NCBI GenBank assembly: GCA_964016885.1
Contig: OZ024752.1
Coordinates: forward strand, 13,330,001-13,394,000
Direction: 5' to 3'
Length of the DNA: 64,000 bases
Origin: Eledone cirrhosa
Lineage: Eukaryota
The notes beneath the pieces were generated by a model. It was not told the origin of the DNA. It made no database searches and was given only the letters and a program-made list of their open reading frames with translations. This document shows, piece after piece, positions 2,235 through 62,397 of this stretch; the stretch's first letter is position 1, and each line of letters starts with the position of its first letter. The position numbers and the translations under genes are program-made.

Positions 2235-2415
2235 ATACTTTGGGAGGGTCATGTTGCCAATAAGAAACACACGCACCCATAACTTTCACTCCAATTTATT
2301 ATAAATTAAATTTATAAATTTAAGAATTTATAAATTTCCGGTTGGTTGGTTGTCAAAGTTCTTTCGTCACACATTCTGTGACCTCTTCAGTGACTGGGGA
2401 TTTTTTTCTTTGTTT

Positions 2416-3920: not shown

Positions 3921-4371
3921 ATACACACACATATATATATACATATATATGTGTGTGTGTGTCTGATGGTAGCTAAGATGCTTCCATAGGCGGTATGCCG
4001 GTTGAGCACTCTATGCTCTGACAGAACAGAGTATGATATAATAGAAAACGAAAAATCAGTGATGCATCTGAACTCAATTTATTGTGTGTTACAATTGTTT
4101 TAGACGCGATTATTGTGTGGATCCACGCGTCTCGAGCTGTCTGCCGGCGAAATAATTGTAACCCACAATAAATTGATTTCAAATGCATCATTGATTTTTC
4201 GTTTTCTATTATATATATATATATATATACTTAGGTTAATAGGAGTTAGGTATTGTATACCCGTGTCCCATTAAGGTATTGGCAGCATAATAATTAGCTC
4301 TATGCTTTGGAGCAGATCCGTATATATGATAAAGAACACAAGAGCGTCTACAACATCAAAATATTTTTATT

Positions 4372-18088: not shown

Positions 18089-18131
18089 GTCACTGAAGAG
18101 GTCACAGAATGTGTGACGAAAGAACTTTGAC
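18089..18131 (+). ncRNA. Minimal hammerhead ribozyme (family A)
   Basis: guca-CUGAAGA-g-gucaca gaaug ugugac-GAAAG-aa-CUU-ugac. Confidence 0.75.
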
Positions 18132-18981: not shown

Positions 18982-19036
18982 ACTGCCTGAAGAGGTCACA
19001 GCCAAAGATGGCTGTCACTGAAATATATATAGCAGT
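18982..19036 (+). ncRNA. Minimal type I hammerhead ribozyme with an (AU)n stem III
   Basis: acugc-CUGAAGA-ggucacagcca aaga uggcugucacu-GAAA-uauaua-UA-gcagu; diverged homologue at 45372-45427(-). Confidence 0.8.
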
Positions 19037-19084: not shown

Positions 19085-20421
<1,337 letters not shown>

Positions 20422-20542: not shown

Positions 20543-20837
20543 TTATATATATATACTTATATATATATATATTTATATATACTTATATATATATATATAC
20601 TTATATATATATATATATTTACCTATATATAGTATTAAGGATACTATTTATGGTTATGTATGTAATAAAACCTTTAATGGTAATATATTATTTATACAAA
20701 CCTTAAATAGTGAAAGATAGTCATTAATTATTATCCTATTACCAGTAAGATAAATAGTTCAATGTAATAACATCAGTTGTTTTACAGAGCAGTTATATAG
20801 AGATTACAATAATCAAAGTTCAGTTTAAGTCATTTAT

Positions 20838-20886
20838 TTGCTTACAATTGTTTCCTCCAAACCGAGGTTTGGATTCTTCGGAGCAA
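20838..20886 (-). ncRNA. PLE pseudo-LTR hammerhead (U4C variant)
   Basis: rc: uugcu-CCGAAGA-a-uccaaacc uc gguuugga-g-GAAAC-aauu-GUA-agcaa. Confidence 0.82.
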
Positions 20887-21561
20887 CTATTTACTGATCT
20901 ATAACATACTTGACCTCCTTTTCAACCCAAGAGACATATAAGACATATGCGCATATTGACCAACAGTGGGGTGACATTCATCAAATGATATAGCATGGCA
21001 ATTTACATATAAAGGTTACAGGATAAAAATAAAAATAAAAACAAAAATGAAAATAAAGATAAACATGAAGCGTTGGCAGTCTATGAAAATAAAGCAAGAG
21101 GAAAGTTTAGAGTAGTCAGTGTATGAAACAATCTCACGTGTAGCATGCACGCGTGTCTTATTTATACATGATTAGAGTGCGTCAGAATGATATTTGCAGG
21201 GTCAGGCAGTTGAAGCAGGCAATCGATCTTATTATGTGGGCTGAATTATTAAGTCATTTATTCGCATACATCTGTATGATATACAGTCCCGGATGCAGGG
21301 AAACACCAAAATATCAGAAACTTTCAACATACTATAAACCTTATTGTATCATAGGCAAAGCCGTACCACTGTCTTCGCTCACCACTCACATAATCCATGA
21401 GATGCAATATATAGAACACGTGTCTATCGTATAATTCACGATGGTTCGGCATATAATCAAGTTATATACCGTATCCAGTCGGTTCTTAATTAATAGATCA
21501 TGCTGTTTAGATTCCGGAAGTGTCTGAATGACTAAGGGGAGTTAAAGCGTAAGGGGAGGTA

Positions 21562-22703
21562 TCTTATGACATAAACACATTTAACAATAACTCGCAGTAT
21601 TATAATCAGGCATTAGCTAGATCAGGCCATAATACAGGGATAGAGTTCCTACCTACAAAAACACATAGCTACAACATCATTTCACACAACATGTCCAGGG
21701 GAAAATTTAATAATAGGAATAGCAACTGCACACACACTAATAGGGATAGTAACAACAAAAGTAACCCGCACCACAGAAATTACCATACGAACATTAAAGG
21801 AAACAAATCACCAGACATAAAAAACAGAAATAGAAGAAGAAATAATACATTTTTCAACCCTCCTTTCAATTTAAACGTCTCTACCAACCTACCTAGGGCT
21901 TTCTTCTCACTACTAGATAAACACTTCCCATCCGGCCACAGGTACCACGGCCTTTTAAACAAAAACACTATTAAGATCTCATACTCTACTACGCCTAACT
22001 TAGCATACCACATAGCTAGTACAAATAAAAGAAAAATTAACTCTTACTTCCAACAAACTAAATCACAACAGTCGATAAACCTTCAAATTAACATTCAAAA
22101 TAACAGTCAAAGTAACATTATAGCAACTAACCGTATTATCAATGGAAATAATAGTAATAGCACTAGTGTAAACATTAACGCTGCGTACCACAACCCACAT
22201 AACCATAACCCTATAGTTAAAATCCAAACTTCTACACAGCATAGTAACCGGCAGACTAGCACCCAGAGTAATTGTAACTGTAGATCAAGTAGAACCTGCC
22301 CTTTAGATAAAAAATGCTTAACCAAGGATATCATATACTCATGTACAGTCACAACTAACAACTCTTCTGAAACCTATATAGGCTCTACTTCTAACTGCTT
22401 CAAAACTAGATACAATTCGTACCTCCACTCTTTCAAAAAACACAGTCTAGCCAACTCCACTTCACTATCCAGCTACATACACTATCTAAAAACTAAAAAT
22501 AAAATATATACACTTAAATGGGAAGTGGTAGGTAGTGCAACATCGTACAAACCACCTAATAAATTTTGTAACCTCTGTCTACTAGAGACCCATACTATCA
22601 TCTTCTCTAAACATAATCTCCTTAATAAAAAAAATCAGAAGTGTTCGCAACTTGCCAACACCGCTTCCGACACTCGTTCCAAAACTTTAAACCCTATATA
22701 TAA
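21562..22703 (+). pseudogene. PLE ORF remnant: RT thumb/linker + GIY-YIG endonuclease
   Basis: NSQYYNQALARSGH..FFNPPFNLNVSTN..CNCRSSRTCPLDKKCLTKDIIYSC..ETYIGST..CNLCLLE. Frameshift in the A-run at ~22626; native stop at 22701-22703. Confidence 0.9.
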
Positions 22704-24629
22704 TAATGTCAGACTGGAACCGGCACCACCCCTAGCAATTAACATCAGTAGCTCACCTTACACCTCACATCCACACCCATTTATATACTCTAAAGATAAT
22801 ACTGACAGCATTTTAGTACCACCTACCCTGGGAATACCCCCTTGTACCTCTAATTCTGATACCTCGACCGTGGACTACTTAAACTGCATTGCACAAGTAT
22901 AAGATTAGTATAAACCGCGGACACGGTACTGGTTGCGATAACATAGTCCTGTGCATGGATTGCCACCAAGAGATAGATTGATGATTAGATAGATAATCGT
23001 ATTGTTATGTGAATATATACTGTAAACGATCAGTTCAATGAACTATCCACAGGTGACGCACGAGTTAGGAGCCTCTGTGTTGCTTGGTGACCGGACCGGC
23101 ATCTTTTGACGAGAGAACCGGCCACTGGACCACCCTGGTGAATTTACCGGGGATGCAGTCATACTACGACCTGAATCTCGCCGGGAGTCATGTACGATAA
23201 TAAGACCATTACTGATAGTGAGACCCATGTAATTAATTAGGTAGTCTGACTCTTCTTATGGATTGGCCAGGTGTGGCACCCCATGTCGGATTGTAGTCTT
23301 CATGATATGAACTCCCTTAGTACTTGTTACTGGACTCCACTCTAGCCTGTGGATGGGATACCTGATCTATATGTGGGATGCGAGTTTATGTATTGCTTGG
23401 TGGCCAGACAGGTGTCCTGGTTTGAGAGATTTAATCTCCAGATTGTAATCATCATGATATGAACTCCTTTAGTACCTATTAATAGACTCCACTATAACTT
23501 GTAGATGTGATACCTAATTGATTTATATATGAGATGGGGGTTGTCTATTGCTTGATGACCAGACTAGTGCCTTTATATGGGAAATTGGATCTCCGGACCA
23601 CCCCGAAGGTATTCAGATTTACCGGGGATTCAGACATGCAATGACCCGGAGCATACCGGGGGGGGGGGGGGTTATATAATAGTGGGACCATACCAGGTCC
23701 TACTGTTATATTACATTTGCATGGAGCAGTGATTTGAGAGTCTGACTCCTCTTATAGAATGTTCAGATATGACACCCCTTAATGGATGGTAATCATCCTA
23801 ATATATACACCCTTGTACTTCTTAATGGACAACTCTCTAACCTATAAATGGGAAACATACTCTAGAAATTAGTTATAACTTGATATGATAGGCACGTATT
23901 TGAATCACCATTAATGTAGTTTAGGATAATAATTTAACCAAGATAACTAGCTAGTTACCTCCCCTTACGCTTTAACTCCCCTTAGTCATTCAGACACTTC
24001 CGGAATCTAAACAGCATGATCTATTAATTAAGAACCGACTGGATACGGTATATAACTTGATTATATGCCGAACCATCGTGAATTATACGATAGACACGTG
24101 TTCTATATATTGCGTCTCATGGATTATGTGAGTGGTGAGCGAAGACAGTGGTACGGCTTTGCCTATGATACAATAAGGTTTATAGTATGTTGAAAGTTTC
24201 TGATATTTTGGTGTTTCCCTGCATCCGGGACTGTATATCATACAGATGTATGCGAATAAATGACTTAATAATTCAGCCCACATAATAAGATCGATTGCCT
24301 GCTTCAACTGCCTGACCCTGCAAATATCATTCTGACGCACTCTAATCATGTATAAATAAGACACGCATGCATGCTACACGTGAGATTGTTTCATACACTG
24401 ACTATTCTAAACTTTCCTCTTGCTTTATCTTCATAGACTGCCAACGCTTCATGTTTATCTTTATTTTCATTTTGTTTTTATTTTTATTTTTATCCTGTAA
24501 CCTTTATATGTAAATTGCCATGCTATATCATTTGATGAATGTCACCCCACTGTTGATCAATATGCGCATATGTCTTATATGTCTCTTGGGTTGAAAAGGA
24601 GGTCAAGTATGTTATAGATCAGTAAATAG

Positions 24630-24678
24630 TTGCTCCGAAGAATCCAAACCTCGGTTTGGAGGAAACAATTGTAAGCAA
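24630..24678 (+). ncRNA. PLE pseudo-LTR hammerhead (U4C variant)
   Basis: uugcu-CCGAAGA-a-uccaaacc uc gguuugga-g-GAAAC-aauu-GUA-agcaa. Confidence 0.82.
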
Positions 24679-24774
24679 ATAAATGACTTAAACTGAACTT
24701 TGATTATTGTAATCTCTATACCTATATATATATATACTTATATATATATATACATACTTATATATATATACTTA

Positions 24775-27753: not shown

Positions 27754-27802
27754 GATTCTACAGGACTAGAACTGTTTCCATCTTTAGAAATCATCAGGAA
27801 TC
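27754..27802 (-). ncRNA. Type I hammerhead ribozyme (family C)
   Basis: rc: gauuc-CUGAUGA-uuuc uaaa gaug-GAAACAG-uucuaguc-CUGUA-gaauc. Confidence 0.75.
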
Positions 27803-32060: not shown

Positions 32061-32107
32061 ATTCCTGATGATTTCTAAAGAATGAAACAGTTCTAGTCCT
32101 GTAGAAT
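32061..32107 (+). ncRNA. Type I hammerhead ribozyme (family C)
   Basis: auuc-CUGAUGA-u-uuc uaaa gaa-u-GAAACAG-uucuaguc-CUGUA-gaau. Confidence 0.8.
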
Positions 32108-32254: not shown

Positions 32255-32567
32255 TTACATGTGAGAAATATATATATACTTATATAGTAATAATAATAAA
32301 TTTGAAGACTAAAATCCAAAGAGGGCTCGATAAGGATAAATATATATCAAATATATAAGAACCGTAGAGCAAATATTTATTAAAATAACAGATTAAAGTT
32401 TAAGCAAAGAATCGGTGCTTTCACCCTTAACGGGATTACAGAAGATCCCGTTAAGTGTGAAAGCAGCGATTCTTTTCTTAATCTTTAATCTGTTATTCTA
32501 ATAAATATATACTTATATATATATACTTATATGTGAGAAAAACCACACACCCTCCATCTCAACTCTA

Positions 32568-34522: not shown

Positions 34523-34600
34523 ATTGCCTCGTCTGACGAACAAATGAAGACGTTTCTTTCGTATTCGCCTCATTCGGGAAACCTCTGGTAATGAGGTAAT
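34523..34600 (+). ncRNA. Type I hammerhead ribozyme with a 10-bp stem I
   Basis: auugccucgu-CUGACGA-[38-nt stem II region]-GAAACC-ucu-GGUA-augagguaau. Confidence 0.75.
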
Positions 34601-34799
34601 TATATATATATATATAATTATATATATATGTATATAATATAATTATATATATATATATAATTATATATATATATAATTATATATATATAATTATATATAT
34701 ATATATAATTATATATATATGAGTGTGTTCTGTTATTAATTCTGGCAATATTACACAAATATGACCCTCCCCAAGTATAACAATATATATATATATATA

Positions 34800-34929
<130 letters not shown>

Positions 34930-35015
34930 TATATATATGAGTGTGTTCTGTTATTAATTCTGGCAATATTACACAAATATGACCCTCCCCAAGTATAACA
35001 ATATATATATATATA

Positions 35016-35069
<54 letters not shown>

Positions 35070-35126
35070 TATATATATGTATATATATATAATTATATAT
35101 ATATATATATAATTATATATATATAT

Positions 35127-35765
35127 TAAACGGAAAAAATGAAACGATATTTCATTTCCCACTCTTAGTACGGCTGTTACTTAAATATAGTATGTACACG
35201 TACATACATATATGTATACCGACGTACAGTAGTATGTATATATATATACATACATGCACACATATATATATGCACGTATGGATTCACCGAACATTTATTA
35301 TAATGCTCGGTGTGCTTGTAAACAAACATCCCGTATTAAGCCGTAGTGTCTAGCAACCACCGTTGCTCGTTTGTTCAACACTGACAAAGGAACGCTGTAC
35401 TAGTTTCAAGCTTGTTAGCTATCGTCAGCAACGTATACCTTCCTGCCAGATTGTTGAAGTATATACTTACCTTATGCATATTAACGGCTGAGTAGCCCAA
35501 TTTGCATATCGAGTGGGTTAATCGGCCGGGTGCACCGAAAACGATAAACGGAAAAAATGAAACGATATTTCATTTCCCACTCTTAGTACGGCTGTTACTT
35601 AAATATAAGTATGTACACGTACATACATATATGTATACCGACGTACAGTAGTATGTAAATATATATACATACATGCACACATATATATATGCACATGTGT
35701 GCATGTATGTATATATATATACATACTACTGTACGTCGGTATACATATATGTATGTACGTGTACA
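35127..35765 (-). mobile_element. ~420-bp terminally redundant non-coding element with a hammerhead (retrozyme-like) and terminal foldback
   Basis: 35127-35275 is repeated directly at 35545-35693; ~35610-35765 is a palindrome; both flanks are (TA)n. Confidence 0.75.
35392..35434 (-). ncRNA. Minimal type I hammerhead ribozyme
   Basis: rc: acguug-CUGACGA-u-agcu aaca agcu-u-GAAAC-ua-GUA-cagcgu. Confidence 0.85.
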
Positions 35766-35778
35766 TATATATATATAT

Positions 35779-35835
<57 letters not shown>

Positions 35836-35903
35836 TATATATATATGTATATATATATAATTATATATATATATATAATTATTTATATATATAATTATAT
35901 ATG

Positions 35904-35943
<40 letters not shown>

Positions 35944-36010
35944 TATATATATGTATATATATATATAATTATATATATATATATATAATTATATATATAA
36001 TTATATATGT

Positions 36011-36051
<41 letters not shown>

Positions 36052-36331
36052 ACATATGACGTATTATCTTCGTTTTTTCGTTCATTGCTAGAGAACGTCT
36101 CTATGCACTACCTAAGAGAACATTAGTCTACGACCTCTTTTATACCATAAACCTGGTTCTGTCTTTGCGCGTAATTGCTTTTCACCGCTCCTATTAATGA
36201 CGTATTATATTCGTTTTTTCCCGTTCCTAGCTAGCGAACGTTACCACGAACCAAAGTATCGTATTCCTGTCTTCCTCCGGTTGCAACGTTTTTTGAAATA
36301 TCCAGTTCTACGTTTACAGATAGACTTTGTT

Positions 36332-36382
36332 AGTTTCAGAAGATCCCGTTAAGGGTGAAAGCAGCGATTCTTTGCTTAAACT
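36332..36382 (+). ncRNA. Hammerhead-like motif, U4A variant (family E)
   Basis: aguuu-CAGAAGA-u-ccc guuaa ggg-u-GAAAGCAG-cgauucu-UUGCUU-aaacu; copies at ~32438, ~44830 (partial, -) and 62185. Confidence 0.6.
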
Positions 36383-36472
36383 TTAATCTGTTATTTTAAT
36401 AAATATATATATATATATATAAATATATATATATATAATTATATATACATATATAATTATATATATATATAT

Positions 36473-36509
<37 letters not shown>

Positions 36510-36947
36510 TATAATTATATTTATAAATAATTATATATATATATAAAATTATATATATATACATATATATATATAATTATATATATATATATAATTATAT
36601 ATATATATAATTATATATATATATAATTATATATATATACATATATATATAATTATATATATATATATAATTATATATATATATATATATATATAATTAT
36701 ATATATATATATATAATTATATATATATATATATATATAATTAGTATTAGTTATACTATTTATGGTTATGTAAACACAAAACCGTAAGCAGTTGTAAGTA
36801 TTTTACACACACCCTAAATAGTGGTAGGCAGTAATGTATTACTACCTTATTACCAGTAAGTTAAGTAGCTCAATGTAAAAACATCAGATGATTTACAGAG
36901 CAGTTATATGAAATATAAGAATCAAAGAACTGTTCAAAACATTATTG

Positions 36948-36994
36948 TGCTTACAGCTGTTTCCTCCAAACCGAGGTTTGGATTCTTCGGAGCA
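36948..36994 (-). ncRNA. PLE pseudo-LTR hammerhead (U4C variant)
   Basis: rc: ugcu-CCGAAGA-a-uccaaacc uc gguuugga-g-GAAAC-agcu-GUA-agca. Confidence 0.85.
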
Positions 36995-38437
36995 ATTTAT
37001 TAATGCATGGACAGTTATATGACCTCCTTTTCAGCCGAGAGACATACCAATACATATTCAAACATTGATACATATTCAAACATTGTGGGTCAACATTCAT
37101 TACAAAATTTAGAGTGGCAGCACACACTTCGAGATTACATTTATATTAATAGGTACAATCAAAAATCAAAGATATAGGTTAAAGTACAACATGAAGATAA
37201 GTGGTTATATAGTGCAAATGTTATATGTGTGGCACGCATGTGCGTCTTGTTTATATAGTGTGGCAGAGAGATATGTGTGGTAGAGGCACTTAGGTAGGTA
37301 AATAAGAGTGTTAGGTTGGTAGATCTGGTGGCAAAGTCTTTATATGATTGATATAGTCTGTGTGTGGAGAAATATTATAAGCATTAAAGATAGTGCAAGC
37401 ATTAAAAGTGTTATAAGTATTGGAGATGCACAGCGCAGGGATGTCAAGTAATTCATGTACTTCGGCATTTTCATGGTCAAGGGAGTGTATATTTCGATTA
37501 TATGCCTTTCACATAATCCACGACAATTCAGTTAGAGATCGTAGTCTGGTGTTCATTAGTTCGATACAGGAGGTTGTTACGTTTCGAGAGACGCCATTGA
37601 ATACCGGAAGTGTGTGTGTGGCTAAGGGGAGTTAATGCATGCGGGGAGGTAACTCTGGGGTTTCTATATCTAGCCAATAAAATGTGTCCCAATATAGACC
37701 CTAAATTCTATGGTGAGGTGCACCTTCCAAGAGAGACTTTTAAAGCATAAAGTGTACTAACTATAGAGTAGTTTAACTAAATTATGCTGAAGGTGATCAT
37801 ATTATTATTAAGGTGGATTAACCCATCTTAAGGTGCTACAAATGGAAATTATAGATGATGAGCGAGGATTCTAAATTAATGATCTCTGTGGTTGTAGTCT
37901 GCTCGTAAGACCAGGCGCGGTGATTGCAGGATTGCTTCAGGACCCAATGATCTCTGGTAAGATCTGGGTCATCGCTTGCTACATTGGATGTCGAAAGATA
38001 ATCGTCCCCAGGCAGGCCAAAGGTCAATCCGCAGTCCTCGCGACCCCTCTCTGACCGTCAGATCATCCATATACGTACAACCCGCACGGCAGTTGCATTG
38101 CATTCACTCACTGCGCTCAGCAGCCTGGTCCTACTGGTCAACAGCGCTACTCGATTAAATCATTTTACATCTGTCTAAGGAAGGTGTTTCCTCTGCCCAA
38201 CACCATCCAACCGATCAATACATGCTCAAATTACCCTTAGAGCGGTGTAGTGCCGTCCAGGTGGGTGGATGTTGTCACACCTGCCGTAGAGGTATAAATG
38301 GGTATTTTCCCTGCGAAGGGTTCCAGAGGGATGTCGTTGTTTGTGTTATAATGGATCAGCTAGTGTTGGGTATGTAGTATAGGGTGTGTCTCTGGTGTTT
38401 GATGCTAGATGTGGTGTTAGGTTCCAGTCCGACATTG

Positions 38438-40897
38438 CTATATATAGGGCTTAAAGTTTTGGAAGGAATGTCTGAGGCGGTGCTGGCAAGTTGCAAACAC
38501 CTCAGATTTTTTGTTAAGTAGGTTACGGTTGGAGAAGATAATATTGTGTGTCTCTAGTATACAGAGGTTACAGAATTTATTAGGTGGTTTGTACGAGGTC
38601 GCGCTGCCTATCACTTCCCATTTGAGTGTGTATGGTTTATTTTTAGATTTTAGATAGTGTATGTAGCTAGAAAGTGAGGTGGAGTTGGCTAGGCTGTGCT
38701 TTTTGAACGAGTGGATGTGCGAGTTATATCTAATTTTGAAGCAGTTAGAAGTGGAGCCTACATAGGTTTCTGAAGAGTTATTAGTCGTGACTGTGCATGA
38801 GTATATGACATCCTTGGTTAGGCATTTTTTATCTAAAGGGCAGGTTCTATTAGCTCTACAGTTACAATTATTCTGTGCGTTAGTCCGCTGGTTATAATGC
38901 AATGCGGAAGTCTGTGTGGTGGATATAGGATTTTGGGTGTTCAGGTTGACAACCCTGGTGTTATTACTTATACTAGTGTTATTTCTATTGTTACTGCCGT
39001 TGCTATTGTTGCTTGCTACAGTGGTATTTAGAGGGTTTGCATCCCGTTGTGATTTTGTTTGTTGGAAGTAAGAACTAATTTTACTATTATTGCTGCTAGC
39101 TATGTGGTATGCTAAGTTAGGCGTCGTAGAGTATGAGATTTTAATGGTGTTTTTGTTTAAGAGGTTGTGGTACTTGTGTCCTAGAGGGAAGTTTTTATCT
39201 AGTAGTGAGAAGAAAGCCCTAGGTATGTTGGTGGAGACATTTAGGTTGAAAGGAGGGTTGAAAAATGTATTATTTCTTCTTCTATTTTTGCTTTTAGTGT
39301 TTGGTGTGTTGCTTCCTCCTAAGGCCTCACAGTAGTTTCCATGGTAATGGTTACTTCCGGTGGCACCCTCGGCTTTGGTGTACTTGTGGTTGCTATTCCT
39401 ATTATTAGATTTCCTCATGGACATGTTGTGCGAGATGATGTTGTAGCTATTTGTTTTCTTAGGTAGGAACTCAATTTCTATATTATGGCCGGAGCTAGCT
39501 AATGCTTGATTGTAATATTGTGAGTTTTTGCTAAATATGTTTGCGTCATAGGACAGACTAGAGATTCTATTGGACACCCCCTTAGAGATAGAGTTTAATA
39601 TTGATCTAGGGTGATTAGACTTGGTATCTACGTAAATAAGTTTCTCATTAGGCTTATGGAAGGGTGTATATATTTTTGAGTCTAGGTATAGTGTGGCGTC
39701 TAGGAAGTTAACATTTTTAGTGTTTTTGTCCATGGTGATACTAAGGTTAAAGTTTTTGAATGTCTTATGCAGTTGTTTTCTAGTTCTTTCTATATTAAAT
39801 TTTTTATATTCTATGAGTAGAAGTGCATCATCGCGGTACAAACCACCGTTGAGGTAAGGGAGGTCTTTATGGATTTCATTGAGGAGGTATAGGCCGACCA
39901 AATCAGTGACCTGCGCCGAGTCACTAGATCCCATGGTTATGTCGAAGTTGTTGTGCGTATCCTTGCGTGTCCATAGTTGGTCCTCGAAGGTGATTATGGT
40001 TTTACGGGCCGCAAGGATGACATCAACCTGGGCTCTAGTCAGGTCGCTATTGGTCATGGCCATGATAAGTGCCTTATTTAATAGGATAGGGGAAATAGAG
40101 GTGTAGTATGAATTGATATCAAATTGAATAAATTTTTTGTTCTTATTATTCTTGATATCCTTAAACCATTCAATTACTTCACCCGTATTTCCCCATTGTT
40201 TAAGGTGTATCTTGTGTTTAATTTGTGGGATGATTTTATCCAAAATCTTCTTGCTGATAATACCAATGTCGGACTTGGAAGGGCAGATAAGTCTTATCGT
40301 GGGGTTGCTGATGAAGTTCTCCTTATGGTCCTTCAGAGAGAATCTAGGGGGGTTCGGAGTGAAAGGTTGTGTATGCCTCTGTAGTCCTAGTTTAGACACT
40401 ATATTATAACCCTCTACATTAATATCTTCTAAGTTTTTCAAGGTGGTTTTTTTGTAGCTTTTATGTAGTTCATTATATATAAACTTTCTATAAGTAATAT
40501 AATCTAGGCTGTATATGTTATTAGTTTTATCTGCGTGTACAATAATTTTATTACTAGTTTTGAATCCACTAATAGAAGTGTTAAGTTTGTTTAAGAAGGT
40601 GTTGCTTCTAATATGGTGCTTATTGTATTTAATGTTCTTAACTAGTTTAACTAGGTCATTTTCAAAGGAGTTAAGTAGAGTGTTATGAGGGGGGCTTTTA
40701 AAGGTTTTAAAGCCGAAGGAGTCAAAATTGTTAGTATTATTCAAGTTGTTAGATTTGTTTCTATCATAATGGAATGTCCTCCATCTCACTCTATTGATAA
40801 ATGAATTTACACTGTTGATCAGCAATTTCTCATATGTATTCCTGGATGGTATTGGTATGTTCTTGGTTGACATGGGGAGTTGGTCTTTGATTAGCAT
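38438..40897 (-). CDS. PLE polyprotein: reverse transcriptase + C-terminal GIY-YIG endonuclease (819 aa)
   Basis: PLE RT motifs HADKTNNIY, LKDHKENF..PTIRLI, FIQFDINSYY, FDITMGS, GLYRDDAL, VNFLDATL, SNHP. Endonuclease CNC..CPL..CL..VIY..TYVGST..FKIRY..H..CNLC..E..LLN..CQH. Confidence 0.96.
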   Translation of the reverse strand: MLIKDQLPMSTKNIPIPSRNTYEKLLINSVNSFINRVRWRTFHYDRNKSNNLNNTNNFDSFGFKTFKSPPHNTLLNSFENDLVKLVKNIKYNKHHIRSNTFLNKLNTSISGFKTSNKIIVHADKTNNIYSLDYITYRKFIYNELHKSYKKTTLKNLEDINVEGYNIVSKLGLQRHTQPFTPNPPRFSLKDHKENFISNPTIRLICPSKSDIGIISKKILDKIIPQIKHKIHLKQWGNTGEVIEWFKDIKNNKNKKFIQFDINSYYTSISPILLNKALIMAMTNSDLTRAQVDVILAARKTIITFEDQLWTRKDTHNNFDITMGSSDSAQVTDLVGLYLLNEIHKDLPYLNGGLYRDDALLLIEYKKFNIERTRKQLHKTFKNFNLSITMDKNTKNVNFLDATLYLDSKIYTPFHKPNEKLIYVDTKSNHPRSILNSISKGVSNRISSLSYDANIFSKNSQYYNQALASSGHNIEIEFLPKKTNSYNIISHNMSMRKSNNRNSNHKYTKAEGATGSNHYHGNYCEALGGSNTPNTKSKNRRRNNTFFNPPFNLNVSTNIPRAFFSLLDKNFPLGHKYHNLLNKNTIKISYSTTPNLAYHIASSNNSKISSYFQQTKSQRDANPLNTTVASNNSNGSNNRNNTSISNNTRVVNLNTQNPISTTQTSALHYNQRTNAQNNCNCRANRTCPLDKKCLTKDVIYSCTVTTNNSSETYVGSTSNCFKIRYNSHIHSFKKHSLANSTSLSSYIHYLKSKNKPYTLKWEVIGSATSYKPPNKFCNLCILETHNIIFSNRNLLNKKSEVFATCQHRLRHSFQNFKPYI

Positions 40898-41146
40898 ATT
40901 GGCAATATTATATGTCAGCTCAACGATATGGAGCAGTTAATAGTATTAGTTATACTATTTATGGTTATGTAAACACAAAACCGTAAGCAGTTGTAAGTAT
41001 TTTACACACACCCTAAATAGTGGTAGGCAGTAATGTATTACTACCTTATTACCAGTAAGTTAAGTAGCTCAATGTAAAAACATCAGATGATTTACAGAGC
41101 AGTTATATGAAATATAAGAATCAAAGAACTGTTCAAAACATTATTG

Positions 41147-41193
41147 TGCTTACAGCTGTTTCCTCCAAACCGAGGTTTGGATTCTTCGGAGCA
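41147..41193 (-). ncRNA. PLE pseudo-LTR hammerhead (U4C variant), upstream copy
   Basis: Same sequence as 36948-36994, 4199 bp away. Confidence 0.85.
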
Positions 41194-42340
41194 ATTTATT
41201 AATGCATGGACAGTTATATGACCTCCTTTTCAGCCGAGAGACATACCAATACATATTCAAACATTGATACATATTCAAACATTGTGGGTCAACATTCATT
41301 ACAAAATTTAGAGTGGCAGCACACACTTCGAGATTACATTTATATTAATAGGTACAATCAAAAATCAAAGATATAGGTTAAAGTACAACATGAAGATAAG
41401 TGGTTATATAGTGCAAATGTTATATGTGTGGCACGCATGTGCGTCTTGTTTATATAGTGTGGCAGAGAGATATGTGTGGTAGAGGCACTTAGGTAGGTAA
41501 ATAAGAGTGTTAGGTTGGTAGATCTGGTGGCAAAGTCTTTATATGATTGATATAGTCTGTGTGTGGAGAAATATTATAAGCATTAAAGATAGTGCAAGCA
41601 TTAAAAGTGTTATAAGTATTGGAGATGCACAGCGCAGGGATGTCAAGTAATTCATGTACTTCGGCATTTTCATGGTCAAGGGAGTGTATATTTCGATTAT
41701 ATGCCTTTCACATAATCCACGACAATTCAGTTAGAGATCGTAGTCTGGTGTTCATTAGTTCGATACAGGAGGTTGTTACGTTTCGAGAGACGCCATTGAA
41801 TACCGGAAGTGTGTGTGTGGCTAAGGGGAGTTAATGCATGCGGGGAGGTAACTCTGGGGTTTCTATATCTAGCCAATAAAATGTGTCCCAATATAGACCC
41901 TAAATTCTATGGTGAGGTGCACCTTCCAAGAGAGACTTTTAAAGCATAAAGTGTACTAACTATAGAGTAGTTTAACTAAATTATGCTGAAGGTGATCATA
42001 TTATTATTAAGGTGGATTAACCCATCTTAAGGTGCTACAAATGGAAATTATAGATGATGAGCGAGGATTCTAAATTAATGATCTCTGTGGTTGTAGTCTG
42101 CTCGTAAGACCAGGCGCGGTGATTGCAGGATTGCTTCAGGACCCAATGATCTCTGGTAAGATCTGGGTCATCGCTTGCTACATTGGATGTCGAAAGATAA
42201 TCGTCCCCAGGCAGGCCAAAGGTCAATCCGCAGTCCTCGCGACCCCTCTCTGACCGTCAGATCATCCATATACGTACAACCCGCACGGCAGTTGCATTGC
42301 ATTCACTCACTGCGCTCAGTTCATATATATAATTATATAT

Positions 42341-43534: not shown

Positions 43535-43599
43535 TATTTTGTCTGATGAAAGCATGCCATAATTTAACATGGTATCCTTGAAATATGTATAATAAAATA
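43535..43599 (+). ncRNA. Type I hammerhead ribozyme
   Basis: uauuuugu-CUGAUGA-aag caugccau aauuuaac augguauc cuu-GAAA-uaugua-UA-auaaaaua. Confidence 0.78.
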
Positions 43600-44729: not shown

Positions 44730-44808
<79 letters not shown>

Positions 44809-44971
44809 TTATTAAAATAACAGATTAAAGTTTAAGCAAAGAATCGCTGCTTTCACCCTTAACGATATTTATCGAGCCCTCTTTGGATTCTAGTCTTCAA
44901 ATTTATTATTATTACTATATATATATATATATCATTATATATATATATATATATAATTATATATATATATA

Positions 44972-45041: not shown

Positions 45042-45080
45042 TGAACCTGAAGATTGCGAAAGCATGAAAGTACTTGTTCA
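45042..45080 (+). ncRNA. Minimal type I hammerhead ribozyme
   Basis: ugaac-CUGAAGA-u-ugc gaaa gca-u-GAAAG-ua-CUU-guuca. Confidence 0.85.
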
Positions 45081-46169: not shown

Positions 46170-46335
46170 AAATAAATATTTATTTGGTTCCTTTACCGGA
46201 TTCGCAGTTCTGCTTTTCAAAAGTAGAGTTGAGATGGAGGGTCTGTGGTTTTTCTCAAAACCACAGACACTCCATCTCAACTCTATTTTTGAAAAGCAGA
46301 AGAACTGCGAAACCGGTAAAGGAACCAAATAAATA
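46170..46335. repeat. Foldback of family B with a U3-A8 hammerhead at 46286-46321(+)
   Basis: tatttggttcctttaccgg..gtctgtggtttt|aaaaccacagac..ccggtaaaggaaccaaata. Confidence 0.85.
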
Positions 46336-46680
46336 TATATATATACACACAATAAATATATATATATATATATAAATATACCAAATAAATATATATATAT
46401 ATATATACACACGTATATATATATATACGTGTGTGTATATATTTTTATACTCGAGTTGATAGAGGGGGGGGGGATCGAGAAGTGACAGGGAATCTGATTG
46501 ACTGATAGTATAAATAGATTAGTTTGGAGTAAAAGCTAGCAAGTAATTAAATTGGTTGTTGGTTGGGTGTGACATTAAAAACAGGACAAGTGGACATAAT
46601 CTGTAGACGGGGTCATAGGCTTCCTGTTGGTAATGTTTATATTATTCGGAGAGAGATATGGGGGCGTGTGAAAGAAATAA

Positions 46681-54215: not shown

Positions 54216-54900
54216 ATAAGAATATTTATATTTATATGTTTAATACAATTATAAATATGGAGGTTAGTACTAAGTCCTAGTTGGTTACCGGTATGACAAA
54301 AGGCTCATTGCAAATTATCAAGTGTTTTACAGAGCCGAGATACAAAGTGTTAAAACGATCAAATTTTAGTTTAGAACATTTATTTGCTGACAGTTGTTTC
54401 TTCCAGAGGGGAGTCTGGTATCATCGGAGCATAGGGAATGTCAAAACATGTGACTAAAATCCTAGTCATTCAGAACATTTAGGGTACATAATTGTTGTTA
54501 GTGTCATAGACATCATGTGGAGAGTCAGGAGTTAAAAAGATGTTATGCTCGAGAGAGCACAATTACAGGCAGCACTGGTTGAAAGTGTAAGACGTATAAG
54601 CAAAAAGTACAGGTAAAAAAGTTATAAGCAAGGAAAAGTGTGGGTTAGGATAGATATAAGATATAAGATATCTTCACATTGGAGAACAGTTAATGTTATG
54701 GGTGTACACTGCAGAAGTCAATACAGTCAATAAGGCATGTATGAGGAAAGAGTTATAATGCAGTTGAAATAAACATATTTTGTGTGGGGTGTTAAAGCAT
54801 GTTATAATTGTTAAAAATGTTTAAGATAGCGTGCTATTTGTTAGAGAAGCATGTGGTGATAATGTAGGGATTTGTTATGTGTTTTTGTAGGTATATTATC
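54210..54900 (-). mobile_element. Solo PLE pseudo-LTR of a divergent family
   Basis: ttttacagagc..aacatttatttgct resembles the pseudo-LTRs at 20630 and 36742, with a hammerhead at the equivalent position; abuts (TA)n. Confidence 0.7.
54385..54431 (-). ncRNA. Hammerhead ribozyme (U4C variant)
   Basis: rc: ugcu-CCGAUGA-ua-ccaga cucccc ucugg-aa-GAAAC-aacu-GUC-agca. Confidence 0.78.
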
Positions 54901-55276
54901 CTATGCATTTTTATCTACAAATTATCTTTTCTAGGGTTTGTATTAACCGTTATTAATACAAACCATAGAAAAGATAATTTGTAGATAAAAATGCATAATA
55001 TAATATACATACTATAACAGCATGGCCAGTAATTCGGTGGAATTTACATTTAACAAACAAACACCTATTGACTATAAACGACTCAAAATAATCCCATGGT
55101 TAATAGCTGTGATTTACAAACAACCTATACACATACATACGAACTACAACACAAAAACACTTGAATGAAAATCACATATCCAACTCTATCATGTACATTG
55201 AATTACACCTTACATAACAAATGCCTACATTATCACCACGTGCCTCTCTAACAGATAGCACGCTATCTTAAACATT

Positions 55277-55862: not shown

Positions 55863-58818
<2,956 letters not shown>

Positions 58819-62129: not shown

Positions 62130-62397
62130 GTATATATATATGTATATGTATATATATATGTATACATATATATATGTGTATATGGTTTCAGAAGATCTCG
62201 TTAAGGGTGAAATCGGCGATTCTTTGCTTAAACTTTAATCTGTTATTTTAATAAATGTATATATATATATATATATTGGTAAACTGAATAGAAAATGCTG
62301 ACAAATTGTTCACAGTTGAAAAATGGTTTAATTAGGAATAAAAGAGTATTAGTGATTGTATGGGTTAGTATTCAGTTGTGGTTTTAAGTTTTTAAGT

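What the first reader, a model, noticed from the sequence alone, without database searches (positions are those of the whole stretch)
35127..35765. Complete-looking ~420-nt retrozyme-like element
Seen: a non-coding unit with ~150-bp direct terminal redundancy (35127 and 35545, offset 418), a canonical hammerhead at 35392-35434(-), a terminal foldback and (TA)n flanks. Inference: reverse transcription of a ~420-nt circular RNA for about 1.35 turns, a miniature of the neighbouring PLE's partial-tandem structure.
Basis: partly seen in the sequence, partly recalled or inferred. Interest (0 to 1): 0.72.

Follow-up and report, generated by a model that had tools for sequence, protein, structure and literature searches.

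The report
Truncated retrozyme copy, Penelope-type ends
This is one short copy of an abundant non-coding repeat that carries a hammerhead motif (predicted to be a self-cutting RNA), a known kind of animal mobile element, and its ends match the footprint of Penelope-type jumping genes, which likely pasted it in from an RNA template that may have been circular.

Summary
In detail: a 150-bp direct repeat at offset 418 (148/150 identical), a type I hammerhead at 35392-35434(-), a 73-bp inverted arm and (TA)n flanks. It is not a local duplication. 8,099 contigs of one public run lie on the unit, and the head-to-tail junction appears in all four runs laid. TA-joined ends cluster at two sites 59 nt apart: the long arm of this copy ends at one, the inverted arm at the other. 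That is the tandem/inverted/'tail' footprint described for Penelope-like elements (PLEs), with no sign of random circular permutation. 'Complete-looking' is wrong: the copy holds one hammerhead, with U·U at the base of helix II and a weak palindromic helix III, so it likely cannot release a unit-length RNA alone. The long arm crosses the cleavage site intact, so the template was a circle or an uncut multimer; this copy cannot tell which. No DNA homology to the neighbouring Hydra-like PLE was found. Verdict: a new member of the known animal non-LTR retrozymes. The scan reported the same two-armed layout before on other DNA of this genome, including a 422-bp unit with the same 59-nt spacing.

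The parts
35127..35544 (-). One full 418-bp unit (38.8% GC, non-coding); RNA sense is the - strand
   Evidence: junction 35544->35127 in contigs of 4 of 4 runs
35545..35694 (-). 5'-truncated second unit (150 bp, pLTR-like redundancy), no hammerhead
   Evidence: 148/150 identical to 35127-35275
35392..35434 (-). Type I hammerhead motif; predicted cleavage after GUA at 35398; U·U at base of helix II; palindromic ACUAGU helix III, likely active as a dimer
   Evidence: activity untested
35695..35767 (+). Inverted head-to-head arm, 73 bp, equal to unit positions 35191-35263; outer end at the family's second TA-joined site
   Evidence: site seen in 32 contigs of X1
35127..35184 (-). About 59-nt 'tail' between end site A (35127) and end site B (about 35185-35191), present on the long arm only; holds a small stem-loop and a U6 run
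   Evidence: hairpin not better than shuffles (z -0.78)
35189..35280 (.). Alternating purine-pyrimidine hairpin region; both arms end inside its second occurrence (possible reverse-transcription stall or switch site)
   Evidence: fold; junction; stalling is inference
34601..35126 (.). Left (TA)n array with AATT interruptions (insertion target)
35768..36049 (.). Right (TA)n array with a similar interruption pattern; target duplication possible but not separable from array periodicity
36742..42319 (-). Neighbouring autonomous-looking PLE (context, candidate enzyme donor, not shown to be the partner): 4199-bp unit, 1379-bp identical repeats each with a hammerhead variant, 832-codon open frame 38438-40936 with Hydra-type motifs
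20629..24720 (-). Second, related PLE copy (context) with the same layout: body ending at TA at 20629 and a 769-bp inverted arm (23953-24720) ending at an internal site 167 nt in

Best explanation
This is a single-hammerhead, 5'-truncated, two-armed copy of an abundant ~420-bp non-coding hammerhead repeat (an animal non-LTR retrozyme family), likely inserted into a (TA)n microsatellite by the reverse transcriptase and GIY-YIG endonuclease of a Penelope-like element, likely from a circular RNA. Shown: the family is multi-copy and occurs head-to-tail; TA-joined ends cluster at two sites 59 nt apart; the two arms of this copy end at those sites; the long arm runs 568 nt, across the hammerhead cleavage site and the unit junction. 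Inferred: tandem arrays elsewhere are transcribed on the - strand, cut by hammerhead dimers and ligated into circles, as shown for coral, mussel and axolotl. The PLE enzyme would nick (TA)n and prime at site A, 271 nt 3' of the cleavage site, copy 1.36 units and stop in the long alternating hairpin. The 73-bp arm likely comes from the other side of the break primed at site B; a snap-back of the first cDNA is the alternative. This copy would be a dead end for circle production unless a partner hammerhead is supplied.
For: Anatomy. Multi-copy and tandem: 8,099 of 16.5 million contigs of run X1 lie on the unit, and the joint 35544->35127 is seen in X1 (10 contigs, plus variant forms in table 5c), X4, X5 and X6 (1 each). 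Fixed ends: TA-like loose ends before 35544 (30 contigs in X1, 2 in X7) and before 35603 (32 in X1; 35600, 1 in X8); the same second site appears as 35189 (29 contigs). The variants listed in the hammerhead fall at N7, loop II, N17 and one helix I wobble pair. The unit folds better than shuffles (z -7.0; -4.0 without the alternating hairpin). The layout equals the PLE template of partial tandem, inverted 5'-truncated copy, one-sided tail and (TA)n target (PMC8557442; PMC3846280). A PLE in this window shows the same two-site layout with arms of very different length, which a snap-back hairpin would not give. Retrozyme biology and the PLE link: PMC7229834; bioRxiv 10.64898/2026.07.22.740005.
Against: No expression, cleavage or circle is shown. 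One 1.36-mer cannot separate a circle from an uncut linear multimer, and a weak hammerhead makes uncut multimers likely to persist. No DNA homology to either PLE of the window: alignment scores stay within shuffles, and a likeness noticed by eye at site B ranks first in PLE1 but is matched by 108 of 300 shuffles and is absent in PLE2. The loose-end tables are cut (13 rows shown and 133 hidden; 16 shown and 120 hidden), so further end sites could be hidden. The variant tables are incomplete (35498 is listed only, 35516 only), so the lack of listed core variants is weak evidence. The inner ends of the two arms lie only 12 nt apart in unit coordinates, which fits a snap-back as well as two primers. 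The tail (about 59 nt) is longer than the 30-40 bp described. Rfam does not recognise the hammerhead, and the active fold is 10 kcal/mol above the predicted minimum for the isolated 61-nt motif. In the 2026 preprint 8 of 9 predicted Xenopus dimers did not cleave.
Confidence: 0.55

Rival explanations
1. Same family and same PLE machinery, but the template was a linear, uncut read-through transcript of a tandem array; ordinary target-primed reverse transcription with 5' truncation gave 1.36 units, and the inverted arm is a snap-back at the palindromic hairpin. No circle is needed.
For: The hammerhead is predicted weak as a monomer (helix III of 1-2 bp, U·U in helix II; comparable axolotl motifs cleave 6-22% as monomers). 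Tandem junctions exist in the family. The arms form a near-perfect hairpin with a 12-nt loop and an 8-nt palindrome at the junction; palindromes at inverted junctions were read as self-priming in PMC3846280. PLE clades lacking canonical hammerheads also make partial tandems.
Against: Families of this kind accumulate mainly as circles in three animals tested. The inverted arm matches the first copy (73/73) rather than the adjacent second copy (72/73), although one later mutation explains this equally. The second PLE of the window has the same end sites without snap-back geometry.
Confidence: 0.33
2. A satellite-like repeat spread at DNA level (unequal exchange, extrachromosomal DNA circles or microsatellite-mediated recombination), with the hammerhead a relic of an old PLE pLTR.
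For: It sits in unstable TA arrays; local tandem amplification of pLTR-derived units is proposed in the 2026 preprint; no RNA evidence is in hand.
Against: Many distinct TA junctions at two precise sites, 5' truncation and a head-to-head arm match retrotransposition footprints.
Confidence: 0.08
3. A one-off local duplication and inversion, or a fragment of a longer coding element.
For: Only one copy in the 64-kb window; no match in JGI metagenomes or IMG/VR.
Against: Thousands of variant contigs in one run and a unit-closing junction in four runs; no open frame above 53 codons from Met.
Confidence: 0.02

Closest known systems
Animal non-LTR retrozymes (Cervera and de la Pena 2020, PMC7229834; mussel 350-390 bp, axolotl 330/350 bp)
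   Same: Non-coding unit in the 150-450 bp range, GC under 50%, type I hammerhead, head-to-tail copies, self-paired fold. The hammerhead combines the single-pair palindromic helix III described for axolotl HHR_Amex1 with the U·U base of helix II described for HHR_Amex2.
   Different: This copy has one hammerhead only; it ends at two fixed TA-joined sites and carries an inverted arm, features I did not see described for retrozymes in the parts read. Cleavage and circles are untested here.
Retrozymes as non-autonomous PLE derivatives (Li, Clavereau and Pollet, bioRxiv 10.64898/2026.07.22.740005)
   Same: Co-occurs with PLEs; this copy falls in their 'monomer' class.
   Different: Their link rests on co-occurrence and pLTR homology in Xenopus; here no homology to the two local PLEs was found and the link rests on insertion ends. 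Not an 'active' element by their two-hammerhead rule.
EN+ Penelope-like element insertions, Hydra clade for the neighbour (Craig et al. 2021, PMC8557442; Arkhipova et al. 2013, PMC3846280)
   Same: Partial tandem, inverted 5'-truncated copy, tail on one end only, (TA)n target, hammerhead near the 3' end.
   Different: No RT or endonuclease frame; tail about 59 nt rather than 30-40; redundancy lacks the hammerhead. Non-autonomous pLTR-forming elements are described there for Chlamys (MRC1), without hammerheads.
Plant LTR retrozymes (as described in PMC7761336, passages)
   Same: Terminal direct redundancy, hammerhead, no coding.
   Different: Those have type III hammerheads in both LTRs, PBS, PPT and 4-bp TSDs; this has one type I hammerhead outside the redundancy.

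Membership tests
Animal non-LTR retrozyme | Type I hammerhead with intact core | tested here: met
   Core, helices I-III and GUA site present; 0 hits in 30 shuffled windows. U·U replaces G10.1-C11.1, as in axolotl HHR_Amex2. Rfam gave no hit.
Animal non-LTR retrozyme | 150-450 bp unit occurring in head-to-tail copies, many per genome | tested here: met
   418 bp; joint 35544->35127 in 4 of 4 runs; 8,099 contigs in X1. Longer arrays could not be seen in short contigs.
Animal non-LTR retrozyme | Non-coding, GC below 50%, self-paired fold | tested here: met
   38.8% GC, longest Met frame 53 aa, z -7.0 and -4.0
Animal non-LTR retrozyme | Self-cleavage of the transcript | not testable with these tools
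   Needs in vitro transcription
Animal non-LTR retrozyme | Expression as linear and circular monomer RNA | not testable with these tools
   Only contigs of unrecorded library type could be laid
'Active' retrozyme as defined by Li et al. 2026 | [quoted passage not shown] | tested here: not met
   One hammerhead; redundancy 150 bp against about 317 needed. Applies to this copy, not to the family.
PLE-type insertion footprint | Partial tandem with 5'-truncated upstream copy | tested here: met
   35545-35694 upstream (in RNA sense) of the full unit
PLE-type insertion footprint | Inverted 5'-truncated copy, head to head, with tail on one end only | tested here: met
   Arm 35695-35767 lacks the first ~60 nt; two family end sites 59 nt apart
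PLE-type insertion footprint | Insertion in (TA)n | tested here: met
   Both flanks; TA-like loose ends in 30 and 32 contigs
PLE-type insertion footprint | Target-site duplication | tested here: inconclusive
   The interruption pattern of the left flank recurs on the right, but also twice more in the array
Autonomous PLE | RT plus GIY-YIG open frame | tested here: not met
   No frame in the unit
Derivative of the neighbouring PLE | Sequence homology to its pLTR or 3' end | tested here: not met
   Scores within shuffles against both PLEs of the window; other PLEs of the genome could not be searched
Plant LTR retrozyme | Type III hammerhead in both LTRs | tested here: not met
   One type I motif, outside the repeat; PBS and PPT not searched
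Hydra-clade PLE (neighbour 36742-42319) | RWK, DKT, CxCX5C, CxxC and CxH motifs, C-terminal GIY-YIG, hammerhead, (TA)n target | tested here: inconclusive
   RWR, DKT, CxCX5C, CxxC, CxH, YRDD and a GIY-YIG-like pair found; hammerhead and TA flanks present. No tree built; Pfam gave no RT or endonuclease hit; the unit is 4.2 kb against 'generally <3 kb'.

The most novel reading that the evidence does not exclude
A TA-targeting, Hydra-type Penelope enzyme primes both strands of one break on a single hammerhead-generated RNA circle, at two fixed internal sites 59 nt apart that are unrelated to the ribozyme cut. The PLE 'pLTR', 'inverted copy' and 'tail' would then all be by-products of two-sided rolling-circle reverse transcription, and this 420-nt RNA a minimal substrate for reconstituting it.
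Probability: 0.3. Interest if true: 0.62.

Novelty: new member of a known kind. Interest (0 to 1): 0.36.

Why it matters
How PLEs make their tandem, inverted and tailed insertions is named as unresolved in PMC8557442, and PLE mobilisation of animal retrozymes has been argued from co-occurrence and homology. A retrozyme family whose ends fall at two fixed TA-joined sites, with the same layout as coding PLEs a few kb away, ties the two by footprint and offers a small defined RNA for an in vitro assay. This particular copy is short and has one hammerhead, so it says less than multi-unit arrays of the family would.

Tried and rejected
No whole genome is held for this window, so copies could not be collected or aligned. 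Rfam: 0 hits at gathering score; the 71 hits at E<=10 are nearly all miRNA-type models matching TA-rich hairpins, all below their gathering scores, and none is a hammerhead; rejected as artefacts. Exact-pattern scans: 0 in JGI metagenomes and 0 in IMG/VR. Run search: 20 of 24 listed runs hold part of the stretch; no RNA holder listed. Summed contig depth was not used as copy number. tRNA-derived SINE: ARAGORN found 0 genes; A-box-like and B-box-like matches occur only on the + strand and in the wrong order. Pol III end: a U6 run lies 7 nt before site A, but the letters after it are part of the element, so this was not adopted. Derivation from the neighbouring PLE: no homology. Target-site duplication: inconclusive. 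Pfam on the neighbouring PLE protein: one weak unrelated hit. Sequence look-ups in earlier notes found one unrelated stretch and nothing, so identity with the 422-bp family noted elsewhere in this genome is untested. The supplement of PMC7229834 could not be read and those of the preprint and PMC8557442 were not seen; they may list related mollusc retrozymes or end structures.

Full report
Observation. The window is AT-rich, microsatellite-dense eukaryotic DNA full of mobile elements. The named relatives of a neighbouring retroelement protein are from molluscs, among them Argonauta, so a cephalopod host is my inference, not a result. At 35127-35767 the sequence holds a 418-bp unit, a second copy of its first 150 bp (148 of 150 identical) and a 73-bp inverted arm equal to 35191-35263 (73/73 to the first copy, 72/73 to the second), between (TA)n arrays interrupted by AATT. 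The unit is 38.8% GC and has no Met-started frame over 53 codons even when read as a circle. It folds better than shuffles (z -7.0; z -4.0 over 35275-35607, which leaves out the alternating hairpin).

The ribozyme motif. On the - strand, CUGACGA (35428-35422) and GAAA (35407-35404) flank helix II, and the GUA site ends at 35398. Helix I has six pairs closing at 35434/35392, then a bulge and further pairs; helix II starts with U·U followed by four pairs; helix III is one A-U pair capped by palindromic CUAG. The same scan gave 10 hits in the window and none in 30 shuffles. Rfam did not find it. PMC4209133 (parts 1-2 of 4 read) describes this geometry as the canonical metazoan type I motif, which cleaves poorly alone and better as a dimer. 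PMC7229834 (parts 2-4 of 6 read) describes a single-pair palindromic helix III and a U·U helix II base in two axolotl motifs. The predicted active monomer fold is -3.1 kcal/mol against -13.1 for the minimum, and the ACUAGU palindrome can pair between two copies at -4.8. Activity is untested.

Copy number and tandem state. No genome is held, so I used public runs. In run X1, 8,099 of 16,517,967 contigs lie on the unit, mostly 90-99% alike; X4, X5 and X6 gave 4, 21 and 2. The joint 35544->35127 occurs in all four (10 contigs in X1 plus variant forms, one in each other run). The single-copy refuter therefore fails. Listed variants within the hammerhead fall at 35424 (N7), 35414 (loop II), 35398 (N17), and 35395 and 35431 (one helix I wobble pair). 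None is listed in the core or at the U·U pair, but the tables are demonstrably incomplete (35498 appears only, 35516 only), so this is weak support. Insertions listed at 35188, 35344 and 35458 would together bring a unit to 422 bp.

Ends. I laid three runs on 35460-35645, which places the unit junction inside the stretch. Of the six X1 rows shown, two stand out with TA-like flanks: before 35544 (30 contigs) and before 35603 (32 contigs). X7 shows the first (2 contigs) and X8 the second (1 contig, 35600). The second site also showed (35189, 29 contigs). 120 and 133 rows were hidden in the two calls, so rarer ends cannot be excluded. The long arm of the window copy ends at the first site (A). 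The inverted arm ends at the second (B), within a few TA-like letters. So the 3' ends are fixed at two sites 59 nt apart, not permuted, and neither is the ribozyme cut, which lies 271 nt from A.

Comparison with PLEs. PMC8557442 (passages; sections 11 and 15) and PMC3846280 (passages) describe PLE insertions as a partial tandem, often with an inverted 5'-truncated copy and a 30-40 bp tail on one end, with (TA)n bias in the Naiad and Hydra clades. The element matches this point for point, with a longer tail. Two coding PLEs in the window do likewise. PLE1 (36742-42319) has a 4199-bp unit, identical 1379-bp repeats that each carry a hammerhead variant, and an 832-codon frame with RWR, DKT, CxCX5C, CxxC and CxH motifs of the Hydra description; no tree was built and Pfam gave no RT hit, though 810 relatives were found. 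PLE2 (20629-24720) has a 769-bp inverted arm that ends at an internal site 167 nt from the body's end, and its inner end is far from the body's, unlike a snap-back. The unit shows no homology to either above shuffles. A likeness at site B, noticed by eye, ranks first in PLE1 but 108 of 300 shuffles score as well, and PLE2 lacks it. The partner enzyme is therefore not identified.

Mechanism. A hammerhead-cut linear monomer would offer only 271 nt from site A to its 5' end. The long arm runs 568 nt across that point, so the template was a circle, an uncut multimer, or was re-entered by an exact jump (inference). Circles dominate in the animals tested and more-than-unit reverse transcription of circles was proposed for both retrozymes and PLEs, so I favour the circle, modestly. 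A weak ribozyme also leaves uncut multimers, and one 1.36-mer cannot decide. The short arm is either a second cDNA primed at B from the other side of the break, a reading I took up from earlier notes of this scan and which PLE2 fits, or a snap-back, which the 12-nt loop and junction palindrome fit. Because the redundancy stops about 167 nt short of a second whole hammerhead, this copy is not an 'active' retrozyme by the rule of the 2026 preprint (parts 1-3 of 5 read), unlike PLE1, whose two repeats both hold the motif.

Novelty. The class, the circle model and the PLE link are in print. Six searches returned no description of a cephalopod retrozyme family or of two fixed TA-joined ends on a retrozyme. 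A giant squid genome paper only counts 235 hammerhead matches (two passages), and PMC7761336 (passages) says metazoan units show no motif that points to their partner. The library lacks most subscription papers, and I saw none of the supplements. Earlier AI notes of this scan report the same two-armed layout for several families in this genome, one a 422-bp unit with ends 59 nt apart; it may be this family, but sequence look-ups did not confirm that. I obtained the 59-nt spacing, before reading those notes.

Verdict. A real, ordinary-sized, single-ribozyme copy of a retrozyme family with a clear PLE footprint: new member of a known kind, interest 0.36. The most novel reading, two-sided rolling-circle copying of one RNA circle, has about 0.3 probability and would be better tested on multi-unit arrays.

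Noticed in passing
window 36952-36990 and 41151-41189 (-); 20843-20881 (-) and 24635-24673 (+): The two PLEs carry a hammerhead variant with CCGAAGA in place of CUGANGA, a 7-bp helix II and a 6-nt palindromic helix III loop that differs between the two elements but stays palindromic.
   Followed up: partly
window 42320-42327: The upstream end of PLE1 is followed by eight letters that equal the reverse complement of its own internal site at 36905-36912, the position where PLE2's inverted arm ends; possibly a micro-arm, but only three letters differ from the TA flank.
   Followed up: partly
window 34533-34600 (+): Hammerhead-like core with a 5-bp helix III whose GUA site abuts the TA array directly, as if an element ended at its cleavage site.
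   Followed up: no
window 34722-34785 and 34939-35002: A ~64-bp non-TA piece occurs twice, 217 bp apart, inside the left TA array.
   Followed up: no
window 20140-20420, 32373-32508, 46172-46340, 4036-4214, 54880-55019: Other head-to-head two-armed or foldback structures, several beside TA arrays, belonging to other small repeat families.
   Followed up: no
window 2362-2390(-), 18093-18121(+), 56836-56864(-), 18987-19031(+), 27775-27797(-), 32065-32103(+), 43543-43591(+), 45047-45075(+): Further hammerhead-like cores from several other repeat families in the same 64 kb.
   Followed up: no
window 36050-36400: A separate insert between the element and PLE1 with a short internal repeat about 140 bp apart; its right end is shared with 32436-32532, 44781-44864 and 62185-62276.
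   Followed up: no
window 35370 (runs X1, X6) and 35456-35458 (runs X1, X4, X5, X6): Contigs diverge or carry insertions at these positions, pointing to subfamilies of the unit.
   Followed up: no
window 38950-39450 (-): The PLE1 protein has asparagine-rich low-complexity stretches between RT and endonuclease, as described for rotifer Penelope elements.
   Followed up: no
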